Part shown: positions 62,333 to 62,922 of the stretch, piece by piece
Position numbering within the stretch: the stretch's first letter is position 1
Layout: every line of letters starts with the position of its first letter
Assembly (NCBI RefSeq): GCF_009914755.1
Contig: NC_060928.1
Reading direction: 5' to 3' (one strand)
DNA: 64,000 nucleotides
Source: the human T2T-CHM13v2.0 reference genome, Homo sapiens
The notes under the pieces: generated by a model
Database searches by the model: none
The model's input: the letters and a program-made list of their open reading frames with translations, nothing else
What the model was told of the DNA's origin: nothing
Made by a program: the position numbers and the translations under genes

Positions 62333-62922
62333 TTTAGCTTCTATTTCTCTAAGGCCTTCCCTAAGTTGGTCTTGCTCCATTTTAAAGATTTCCTCTACTC
62401 CTCTTAGGCCATCATTTTCCTTAGTAACAAATCTTACATCCTGAAGGTTTTCATGAAGCTTCTGAGTCAATCTTAATTTCTGCGTTTCTACACTTTCCAG
62501 AGTTACATTCCAGGCCTCTAACTGCTTCTTTAACTGACCTGTTTGATACATAGTTTCCCTAAGATCATTTTTTACTTTAAGAAGTTGAGGCTGGGCCTGG
62601 CGGCTCATGCCTGTAATCCCAGCACTTTGGGAGGCCGAGGCGGGTGGATCATGAGGTCAGGAGATCGAGACCACCCTGGTCAACACGGTGAAACCTCCTC
62701 TCTACTAAAAATACAAAAATTAGCTGGGTGTGATGACATGCATCTGTAATCCTAGTTACTTGGGAGACTTGAGGCAGGAGAATCGCTTGAACCCGGGAGG
62801 CAGACATTGCAGTGAGCCGAGATCATGCCGTTGCACTCCAGGCGACAGAGCGAGACTCTGTCTCAAAAAAAAAAAAAAAAAAAAAAAAGAAGTTGATGTT
62901 CTTTCTCCTGAAGTTCTTGGAT
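62333..62922 (-). pseudogene. CENPE: Alu-interrupted relic of a CENPE B-type coiled-coil exon
   Basis: Removing the Alu and one TSD copy gives an open 282-nt frame IQELQEKEHQLLKVK...LREIEAK with ctcaag acceptor and GTAAG donor. Confidence 0.85.
62589..62888 (+). mobile_element. Alu (AluSc-like) inserted in the relic CENPE exon
   Basis: Full dimer; TSD aagaagttga at 62579-62588 and 62887-62896. Confidence 0.95.

What the first reader, a model, noticed from the sequence alone, without database searches (positions are those of the whole stretch)
62333..62922. Lost CENP-E stalk exon: a 94-codon coiled-coil exon split by an Alu insertion
Seen: the A(159 nt)-B(291 nt) exon alternation breaks here, with two A exons (63109, 61611) adjacent. 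Between them lies a B-like sequence cut by an Alu with TSD aagaagttga. Joining 62922-62897 to 62588-62333 gives 282 nt with no stop or frameshift ([94 protein letters not shown]). It keeps the same attatctcaag acceptor as the 59940 exon and a GTAAG donor. Recalled knowledge: canonical human CENP-E reads ...DALKAQ-DLKIQEE..., skipping this segment. Inference: a primate retrotransposition removed, or followed loss of, about 94 aa (roughly 14 nm of coiled coil at ~0.15 nm per residue) from this kinetochore motor, tolerated because the exon is phase 0/0.
Basis: partly seen in the sequence, partly recalled or inferred. Interest (0 to 1): 0.9.

Follow-up and report, generated by a model that had tools for sequence, protein, structure and literature searches.

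The report
Lost CENPE exon split by Alu
An intron of the human CENP-E gene still holds the readable remains of a 94-codon exon, broken by an Alu insertion, that other placental mammals use but apes and Old World monkeys do not; it is a modest example of a jumping element found inside a lost piece of an essential protein.

Summary
On the minus strand an AG acceptor precedes 62922. An antisense Alu (62589-62886) carries a perfect 10-nt target-site duplication. Joining 62922-62897 to 62588-62333 gives 282 nt, 94 open codons and a GTAAGC donor.

It is a real lost exon. In 123 of 125 non-primate CENPE proteins, an ungapped 94-aa segment 67-76% identical to it sits next to the orthologues of the two flanking 159-nt exons. 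The two exceptions are marsupials. One such protein comes from an intron-free 8.7-kb contig. In a tree of 99 stalk repeat units, the human relic falls inside the "unit 7" clade with 100/99 support. None of 116 catarrhine entries contains it (20 named ape and Old World monkey species, human included).

Causality is unresolved. The Alu is the only lesion visible in human, which favours it as the cause (about 0.55). Against that, no primate model of any kind appeared where an exon-bearing one should have scored. I could not fetch New World monkey, tarsier or lemur sequences. The mechanism is of a known kind, and I found no published description of this instance.

The parts
62923..62924 (-). AG acceptor of the relic exon. 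Its context GATTATCTCAAG is shared with the functional B-type exons at 60965 and 59940.
62887..62922 (-). 5' piece of the relic exon: 36 nt, codons 1-12, IQELQEKEHQLL. Its last 10 nt (62896-62887) are one copy of the target-site duplication.
62589..62886 (+). Alu element, antisense to CENPE. The body is 62589-62864 (276 nt, 11 CpG left) and the A tail is 62865-62886 (22 nt). If read as exon, a TGA at 62865-62863 (minus strand) stops the frame just after the T run.
62579..62588 (-). Second copy of the 10-nt target-site duplication TCAACTTCTT. It is part of the 3' exon piece.
62333..62588 (-). 3' piece of the relic exon: 256 nt, open in frame from 62587 (85 codons, QLLKVKNDL...REIEAK).
62331..62332 (-). 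GT of the intact donor GTAAGC.
63109..63267 (-). Upstream functional 159-nt A-type exon (...DALKAQ). In human mRNA it is spliced directly to 61769.
   Evidence: hub annotation
61611..61769 (-). Downstream functional 159-nt A-type exon (DLKIQEE...).
   Evidence: hub annotation

Best explanation
The stretch 62333-62922 is the relic of the seventh B-type repeat exon (282 nt, 94 codons, phase 0/0) of the CENP-E coiled-coil stalk. Non-primate placental mammals splice this exon between the orthologues of the two 159-nt exons at 63109 and 61611. Apes and Old World monkeys, human included, do not.

In the human sequence the only visible lesion is an Alu, antisense to the gene, inserted between codons 12 and 13 (its 10-nt duplication copies the end of codon 9 to codon 12). 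The insertion stretched the exon from 282 to 590 nt and put a stop codon right after the T run. The spliceosome skipping the whole exon then gives an in-frame protein 94 residues shorter. At about 0.15 nm per residue that is roughly 14 nm of a stalk with about 1700 coiled-coil residues.

The shorter form was tolerable because the stalk is a repetitive array whose units are gained, lost and alternatively spliced in other lineages as well.

Shown: orthology, presence in non-primates, absence in catarrhines, and the Alu hallmarks. Inferred: that the Alu was the inactivating event rather than a later arrival, and that skipping, not some other route, was the immediate effect.
For: Orthology and position:
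- The 85-aa 3' piece finds CENPE models of whale, camel, seal and a rodent at 62-72% identity.
- In those proteins the full 94-aa segment lies between ...ALKAQ and DL.KQEEL....
- 123 of the 125 proteins hold a segment at least 60% identical over at least 85 aa. Identity is 67-76% over 94 aa for the rows visible.
- 26 representative orthologues and the human relic align without a single gap, all at 94 aa.
- In an IQ-TREE tree of 99 B-type units, the human relic is inside the unit-7 clade (100/99). Within it, it groups with rabbit, Tupaia and squirrel (98/86). Every other unit clade contains chimp, or chimp and langur, units; unit 7 contains none.

Transcript level:
- P0071 (2732 aa from an 8,694-nt contig, so intron-free) includes the segment.
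- Human-identical contigs of about 8 kb (P0229, P0236, P0244) lack it.

Absence in catarrhines:
- 0 of 116 entries contain it (109 named entries from 20 species, plus 7 unnamed). The best match is 48-54%, which is paralogue level.
- In 99 of the 116, the A2 exon starts one residue after A1 ends.

The Alu as the lesion:
- It has a perfect 10-nt duplication, a 22-nt A tail and two 7SL-like halves.
- The acceptor AG, donor GT and reading frame are otherwise intact. No other disabling change is visible.
- Keeping frame, length and splice dinucleotides by luck has probability about 0.15, 0.05 and 0.005 for neutral branch lengths of 0.032, 0.05 and 0.09 (the rates are recalled). This argues against a loss as old as the primate root.

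Exonic Alu insertions causing whole-exon skipping are known from disease alleles such as BRCA2 c.156_157insAlu. That link rests on recall; I saw only titles and abstract starts, which do not state it.
Against: - No primate of any kind appeared among the best 120 of 642 hits. Calibration showed that catarrhine proteins score 573-664 bits without the segment and 765-876 bits with it put back in silico. The list cut-off was 733. Exon-bearing lemur, tarsier or New World monkey models should therefore have been listed if they exist in the database, which hints that the exon is also missing where this Alu is not expected. I could not verify that those species are in the database.
- On the human branch the relic is not significantly more decayed than its functional neighbours. 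At columns at least 85% conserved it has 7 departures in 55, against 18 in 207 for the neighbours (Fisher p = 0.44).
- Its tree branch (0.18) lies within the range of the catarrhine paths in the other unit clades.
- Neighbouring units are skipped in some isoforms and lineages. Skipping of this unit could therefore have preceded the Alu.
- The age and subfamily of the Alu rest on recalled diagnostic positions and rates, not on a tool.
Confidence: 0.55

Rival explanations
1. The exon had already dropped out of the mRNA, or had become a dispensable cassette, before the Alu arrived. On this reading the Alu is a passenger that could insert and fix because the exon no longer mattered. The original cause would be a change in splicing regulation that is not visible as a broken splice site.
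For: - 0 primates appear among the 120 listed hits, although exon-bearing primate models should have scored above the cut-off.
- The A/B exon array is labile. Bat models lack the downstream A exon, and ruminant and hippo models lack the upstream one.
- 17 of 116 catarrhine entries skip the 63109 exon.
- The human relic and the unnamed primate-like records P0253 and P0254 share five departures from the non-primate majority: E59D, I60V, L77F, S87G and T91I. These could mark early relaxation.
Against: - The frame, the 94-codon length, the AG and the GT are all intact in human. If the exon had been neutral since the primate root, the probability of that is about 0.005 (recalled rates).
- No lesion other than the Alu is visible.
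- The absence of non-catarrhine primates is an argument from a list. It is not a look at their sequences.
Confidence: 0.33
2. The relic is not fully dead. Its 3' piece is still spliced at a low level or in some tissue, for example from the AG at 62592-62591 (ggcccag|CCTCAACTT). That would give a 258-nt, 86-codon exon in phase 0/0, and such use would be what keeps the frame open.
For: - The relic frame stays open for 23 codons upstream into the Alu (ORF 62279-62656).
- An AG sits two bases before the duplication, in the correct frame.
- The donor GTAAGC is intact.
- Intactness by luck is only about 5-15% likely even for a loss 30-45 million years ago.
Against: - None of the 17 RefSeq transcripts in the hub table has an exon here.
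- 0 of 9 human entries and 0 of 116 catarrhine entries carry the peptide.
- The AG follows a purine-rich stretch with several upstream AGs, which makes it a poor acceptor.
- The primate-like records P0253 and P0254 have I instead of V at the first intron codon. That implies a GTA to ATA change, a destroyed donor, in that lineage.
Confidence: 0.04
3. It is a chance open frame, or a never-functional duplicate of a B-type exon, and not the orthologue of an exon used elsewhere.
For: Open frames of this size occur by chance here: a 168-aa antisense ORF lies at 61231-61737. The relic is 48-54% identical to the paralogous B units.
Against: - It is 67-76% identical to the segment at the same array position in non-primates, against about 50% to paralogues.
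- The 94-aa alignment has no gaps.
- The tree places it in the unit-7 clade with 100/99 support.
Confidence: 0.01

Closest known systems
Disease alleles in which an Alu lands inside a coding exon and the exon is skipped. An example is BRCA2 c.156_157insAlu with in-frame loss of exon 3. The link between that allele and the skipping is recalled; I saw only titles and abstract starts.
   Same: An Alu sits inside a coding exon, the whole exon is left out of the mRNA, and the product is in frame.
   Different: Here the insertion is fixed in at least 20 catarrhine species and sits in an essential mitotic gene with no apparent harm. Whether it caused the skipping is inferred, not shown.
Lineage-specific exon loss that leaves a pseudoexon behind. 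An example is human CMAH, recalled as loss of a coding exon by an Alu-mediated deletion; PMC5767959 was seen in the listing only.
   Same: A coding exon used by other mammals is missing from the primate product, and an Alu is involved.
   Different: In CMAH the exon DNA is deleted and the gene is inactivated. Here the exon DNA is all still present, split but readable, and the gene stays functional.
Alu exonization, in which an antisense Alu supplies splice sites for a new exon (recalled from the literature on Alu-exon 3' splice sites).
   Same: The Alu is antisense to the gene, and its T run lies in the pre-mRNA.
   Different: The process runs the other way: an exon is lost rather than gained. 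No annotated exon uses this Alu. The block recalled as the usual Alu acceptor is damaged in this copy by a 5-nt deletion and a CAG to CAA change.
Alternative skipping and lineage-specific loss of other A/B repeat exons of the CENP-E stalk.
   Same: The same array of phase-0 repeat exons is involved, and the result is again an in-frame change in stalk length. Examples are catarrhine isoforms without the 63109 or 59650 exon, bat models without the downstream A exon, and ruminant models without the upstream one.
   Different: Those events leave an intact exon in the genome or concern other units. Here the exon is physically interrupted.

Membership tests
Alu SINE insertion | Two 7SL-derived monomers | tested here: met
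   One search gives two Metazoa_SRP matches, at 62590-62704 and 62723-62866 on the plus strand, with 44 and 43.4 bits and E 6.5e-10 and 9.6e-10. Both are below the 70-bit gathering score, as expected for partial 7SL derivatives. One search finds 12 other copies of 240 nt or more in the window at 68-82% identity.
Alu SINE insertion | 3' A tail and flanking target-site duplication | tested here: met
   The A run is 22 nt, at 62865-62886. The 10-nt direct repeats are identical, 10 of 10.
AluS (Sc-like) subfamily, implying an age near the anthropoid or catarrhine stem | Diagnostic positions against subfamily consensus sequences | not testable with these tools
   No reference consensus is held by the tools. 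The Sc-like reading comes from recalled diagnostic motifs. Tool-based proxies are 11 CpG left and 9.2% non-CpG mismatch to a mixed consensus of 13 window Alus, whose range is 4.5-18.8%.
CENP-E B-type stalk repeat exon, unit 7 orthologue | Lies between the orthologues of the two A-type exons | tested here: met
   the matching segment directly follows ...ALKAQ. In most non-primate proteins it directly precedes the A2 orthologue.
CENP-E B-type stalk repeat exon, unit 7 orthologue | Closer to unit 7 of other species than to any paralogous unit | tested here: met
   Identity is 67-76% to unit 7 against 48-54% to paralogues. The unit-7 clade has 100/99 support in the tree of 99 units.
CENP-E B-type stalk repeat exon, unit 7 orthologue | Same length and phase | tested here: met
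   Human and 26 orthologues are all 94 codons and align without gaps. The exon is 282 nt and sits between whole-codon exons.
Lost exon (pseudoexon) of a still-functional gene | Absent from the lineage's mature transcripts and proteins | tested here: met
   0 of 116 catarrhine entries contain it, as do 0 of 9 human entries. The hub table lists no exon here in 17 RefSeq transcripts. Tissue-level RNA data could not be examined.
Lost exon (pseudoexon) of a still-functional gene | A disabling lesion | tested here: met
   The Alu insertion places a stop at 62865-62863 if the region is read through.
Lost exon (pseudoexon) of a still-functional gene | Relaxed constraint after the loss | tested here: inconclusive
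   On the human branch the relic has 7 departures in 55 conserved columns against 18 in 207 for its neighbours (p = 0.44). Human differs from the unnamed record P0253 at 10 of 52 positions. Functional neighbours differ between human and Old World monkeys by 6.2-7.4% (p = 0.005-0.016). That comparison holds only if the record is at catarrhine distance.
Alu exonization | An annotated or observed exon that uses Alu-borne splice sites | tested here: not met
   The hub annotation shows no exon overlapping 62589-62886, and no catarrhine protein carries Alu-derived or relic-derived residues here. RNA-seq was not available.

The most novel reading that the evidence does not exclude
The intact frame, exact 94-codon length and intact splice dinucleotides are not luck. 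On this reading, catarrhines still splice the 3' piece as an 86-codon in-frame cassette from the AG at the Alu/duplication boundary (62592-62591) to the GTAAGC donor. That would give a rare long-stalk CENP-E isoform in some tissue or stage, with an acceptor donated by the very Alu that broke the exon.
Probability: 0.04. Interest if true: 0.65.

Novelty: new member of a known kind. Interest (0 to 1): 0.42.

Why it matters
Human CENP-E, and that of all apes and Old World monkeys examined, is one 94-residue stalk repeat shorter than the protein of other placental mammals. That corresponds to eight B-type units instead of nine. The missing unit is still readable in the intron.

Stalk length affects motor function when cut drastically. 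Removing 1475 of about 1700 coiled-coil residues impairs kinetochore attachment (PMC4116301, abstract and one passage). A natural 94-residue difference is therefore worth knowing when results are carried between human cells and other mammals.

If the Alu was the cause, this is also a rare fixed example of a retrotransposon landing in a constitutive coding exon of an essential gene and being tolerated through in-frame skipping. It has a clear order of events that could be tested across primates.

The likely functional effect is small, and the mechanism is of a familiar kind.

Tried and rejected
- Long-translation query. To reach full-length primate proteins with a human query, I gave a 5.5-kb genomic translation with a region.
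- Primate-biased profile. I tried to build one from Tupaia CENPE plus 17 human exon translations (alignments A1 and A2). MAFFT stacked the fragments on each other, so the alignments were discarded and never searched.
- Choosing a better query. One search timed out. Its smaller repeat, showed that the Tamandua C-terminus ranks human second of 126. The resulting search returned xenarthrans and catarrhines only.
- Representative library. The search gave 56 hits. It held only two primate-like fragments (P0253, P0254), both unnamed and both starting at codon 44, so they do not show whether the Alu is present there.
- Literature. The searches 'CENP-E, Alu, exon' (33 papers, 15 listed), 'CENPE, exon loss' (1 paper, unrelated) and 'Alu insertion, coding exon, exon loss, primate' (98 papers, 12 listed) turned up no description of this exon. 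I read titles and abstract starts only. PMC9435740 mentions CENP-E only in its reference list.
- Excess decay on the human branch. The test gave no signal.
- dN/dS could not be computed, because no DNA of other species was available.

Full report
**Observation**

The parts, in order, are:
- an acceptor, ...gattatctcaag|
- 36 nt of reading frame, ATCCAAGAA...CATCAACTTCTT
- a T run and an antisense Alu
- the same ten bases, TCAACTTCTT, again
- 246 more nt of frame, ending ...GAAGCTAAA|GTAAGC

One search confirms four points:
- The two ten-base copies are identical.
- The 11-mer attatctcaag is shared with the acceptor of the 59940 exon.
- The two neighbouring exons are both 159 nt and hold whole codons.

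The insert is an Alu by every hallmark I could test. It has two 7SL-like halves on the plus strand, a 22-nt A tail at 62865-62886, and 12 relatives of 240 nt or more in the window at 68-82% identity. If the interrupted exon were included as it stands, the frame would stop at a TGA immediately after the T run (ORF 62863-63009). An open frame of 94 codons is not itself remarkable here, because a 168-aa antisense ORF lies nearby. The case rests on homology.

**The relic is the orthologue of a used exon**

The 85-codon 3' piece, searched against longer proteins, found 5 CENPE models: grey whale, camel, elephant seal (two models) and a murid rodent, at 62-72% identity. In the four of these located (whale, camel and both seal models), the full 94-residue counterpart sits directly after ...ALKAQ. 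In three of the four it also sits directly before DL.KQEEL..., the orthologues of the human exons at 63109 and 61611.

A second search used the whale A-B-A region and gave 642 hits, of which the best 120 were listed. All were non-primates: cetaceans, artiodactyls, carnivores, perissodactyls, bats, a pangolin, tree shrew, rabbit, squirrel, gundi, an anteater and two marsupials. Of the 125 proteins hold a segment at least 60% identical to the human relic over at least 85 residues. Identity is 67-76% over 94 aa in the rows that were visible. The two exceptions are the marsupials, at 39-41%, which is paralogue level. All 4 xenarthran proteins also have it.

Twenty-six representative orthologues and the human relic align without one gap, all at 94 residues. 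The 3-codon difference from the 97-codon paralogues is therefore ancestral and not decay.

Non-primate proteins have nine B-type units, and the chimpanzee isoform examined has eight. In a maximum-likelihood tree of 99 such units:
- The human relic lies inside the unit-7 clade (100/99 support).
- Within that clade it groups with rabbit, tree shrew and squirrel (98/86).
- The human exons at 60675 and 59650 fall with chimp and langur in units 8 and 9.
- No catarrhine protein unit falls in unit 7.

One non-primate entry, P0071, is 2732 aa from an 8,694-nt contig. That contig has no room for introns, so the segment is present at transcript level there.

**Catarrhines do not use it**

A search with the anteater C-terminus returned 693 hits, of which the best 120 were listed. 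These were 4 xenarthrans and 116 catarrhine entries: 109 named entries from 9 hominoid and 11 Old World monkey species, human included, plus 7 unnamed. None of the 116 contains the segment; the best match is 48-54%. In 99 of them the A2 exon begins one residue after A1 ends, and the other 17 lack A1. Human-identical transcript-like contigs (P0229, P0236, P0244) also lack it. Of 9 human entries checked, 6 contain ALKAQDLKIQEE and none contains QLLKVKNDL.

**Other primates: only indirect evidence**

I could not retrieve New World monkey, tarsier or strepsirrhine sequences. There is an indirect hint.
- Local phmmer reproduces the scores.
- Deleting the segment from four non-primate proteins drops them by 104-207 bits, to 580-720. 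That is below the list cut-off of 733.
- Catarrhine proteins score 573-664 as they are, and 765-876 with the segment inserted in silico.

An exon-bearing primate model should therefore have been listed, and none was. This suggests that primate models in general lack the exon. It is still an argument from a ranked list, and I did not verify that those species are in the database.

**Decay**

On the human branch the relic does not stand out.
- At columns conserved in at least 85% of orthologues it departs 7 times in 55: E26G, Q35W, S37V, E45Q, E58Q, E59D and L77F. The five functional neighbour exons depart 18 times in 207 (Fisher p = 0.44).
- Its terminal branch (0.18) is within the range of the catarrhine paths in the other unit clades.

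The stalk evolves fast even where it is functional: human and Old World monkeys differ by 6.2-7.4% at the amino-acid level in these exons. The test therefore has little power.

Two unnamed genomic ORFs from the representative library, P0253 and P0254, supply a second primate-like copy.
- They match relic codons 44-94 at 42 of 52 positions.
- They then read on into intron sequence identical to the human intron: 16 of 16 residues in P0253. P0254 matches in a shifted frame.
- Both have I where human has V at the first intron codon, which implies GTA to ATA and so a destroyed donor.
- They share E59D, I60V, L77F, S87G and T91I with human, but keep the ancestral E45, R72 and T76.
- If they are at catarrhine distance, 10 differences in 52 is about three times the functional rate (p = 0.005-0.016).

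In human, the frame, the exact length, the AG and the GT are all intact. With recalled neutral rates, the probability of that is about 0.15, 0.05 and 0.005 for branch lengths of 0.032, 0.05 and 0.09. That makes a loss as early as the primate root unlikely.

**Age of the Alu**

The body is 276 nt and keeps 11 CpG. It differs at 9.2% of non-CpG positions from a mixed consensus of 13 window Alus, whose own range is 4.5-18.8%. From recalled diagnostic motifs it reads as AluS, Sc-like. With recalled rates that places it roughly at the anthropoid to catarrhine stem. This is old enough to be shared by all catarrhines and too young for strepsirrhines. No tool here holds subfamily references, so this step is recall.

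**Mechanism and rivals**

The best reading (about 0.55) is that the Alu insertion disabled the exon. The spliceosome then skipped it, and the in-frame 94-residue shortening was tolerated in a repetitive stalk.

The main rival (about 0.33) is that the exon was already skipped or dispensable when the Alu arrived. It is supported by the missing primates and by how labile the array is: bat models lack the downstream A exon, ruminant and hippo models lack the upstream one, and catarrhine isoforms skip A1.

A minor reading (about 0.04) is that the 3' piece is still used through the in-frame AG at 62592-62591. Chance or a never-used duplicate is excluded.

**Comparison and novelty**

The mechanism belongs to a known kind: exonic Alu insertion with exon skipping, and lineage-specific exon loss. 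I found no description of this instance in three literature searches, seeing listings only. The functional weight is probably small. The stalk has about 1700 coiled-coil residues, and it took removal of 1475 of them to impair function in the Bonsai experiments (PMC4116301, abstract and one passage).

**Limits**

- No DNA of other species and no RNA-seq were available.
- Supplements were not consulted.
- Protein entries are mostly gene models.
- Alu subfamily, neutral rates and the BRCA2 and CMAH parallels are recalled or seen only in search listings.

Noticed in passing
window 62589-62886 (Alu), block near 62830-62850: This Alu copy has a 5-nt deletion (CCTGG in plus-strand reading), while the other 9 window Alus covering the block keep that stretch (7 unchanged, 2 with one substitution). 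It also has CCGTTG where most copies have CCACTG. Read antisense, both AGs that I recall as the usual acceptors of Alu exons are gone. This might reflect selection against aberrant splicing next to a strong donor, or it might be chance.
   Followed up: partly
window 62590-62592 with ORF 62279-62656 (-): The relic frame stays open 23 codons upstream into the Alu. An AG two bases before the duplication (ggcccag|CCTCAACTT) would give a 258-nt exon in phase 0/0 encoding P plus the 85 relic residues. There is no transcript evidence for it.
   Followed up: no
proteins P0253 and P0254 (unnamed), matching window 62279-62460 (-): These are primate-like genomic ORFs covering relic codons 44-94 plus intron read-through. 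Both imply a GT to AT change in the donor. Both start at a Met that corresponds to human Thr44. They do not extend to the Met22 position, which hints at a further stop or frameshift upstream in that lineage.
   Followed up: partly
window 63109-63267 and 59650-59940; proteins: The stalk repeat exons are variably used. Among catarrhine entries, 17 of 116 lack the 63109 exon, and several isoforms lack the 59650 exon. Bat models lack the orthologue of 61611, ruminant and hippo models lack the orthologue of 63109, and some cat isoforms lack it too.
   Followed up: partly
proteins P0072 and P0122 (marsupials): Marsupial CENPE models have many A/B repeats but no segment above 41% identity to the relic. 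Unit 7 as such may therefore be a placental feature, or the marsupial array may have been remodelled.
   Followed up: no
window 62925-62945, 60968-60988, 59943-59963 (-): The intron bases just upstream of the three B-type acceptors are alike (TATGATTATCTCAAG, TATGATTATCTTAAG and TACAATTATCTCAAG), although the units diverged before the placental radiation. This suggests constraint on a weak, shared acceptor context.
   Followed up: no
window 61231-61737 (+): A 168-codon stop-free frame runs antisense across the 61611 exon and its flank. It is probably a by-product of the K/E/Q-rich codon usage on the coding strand.
   Followed up: no
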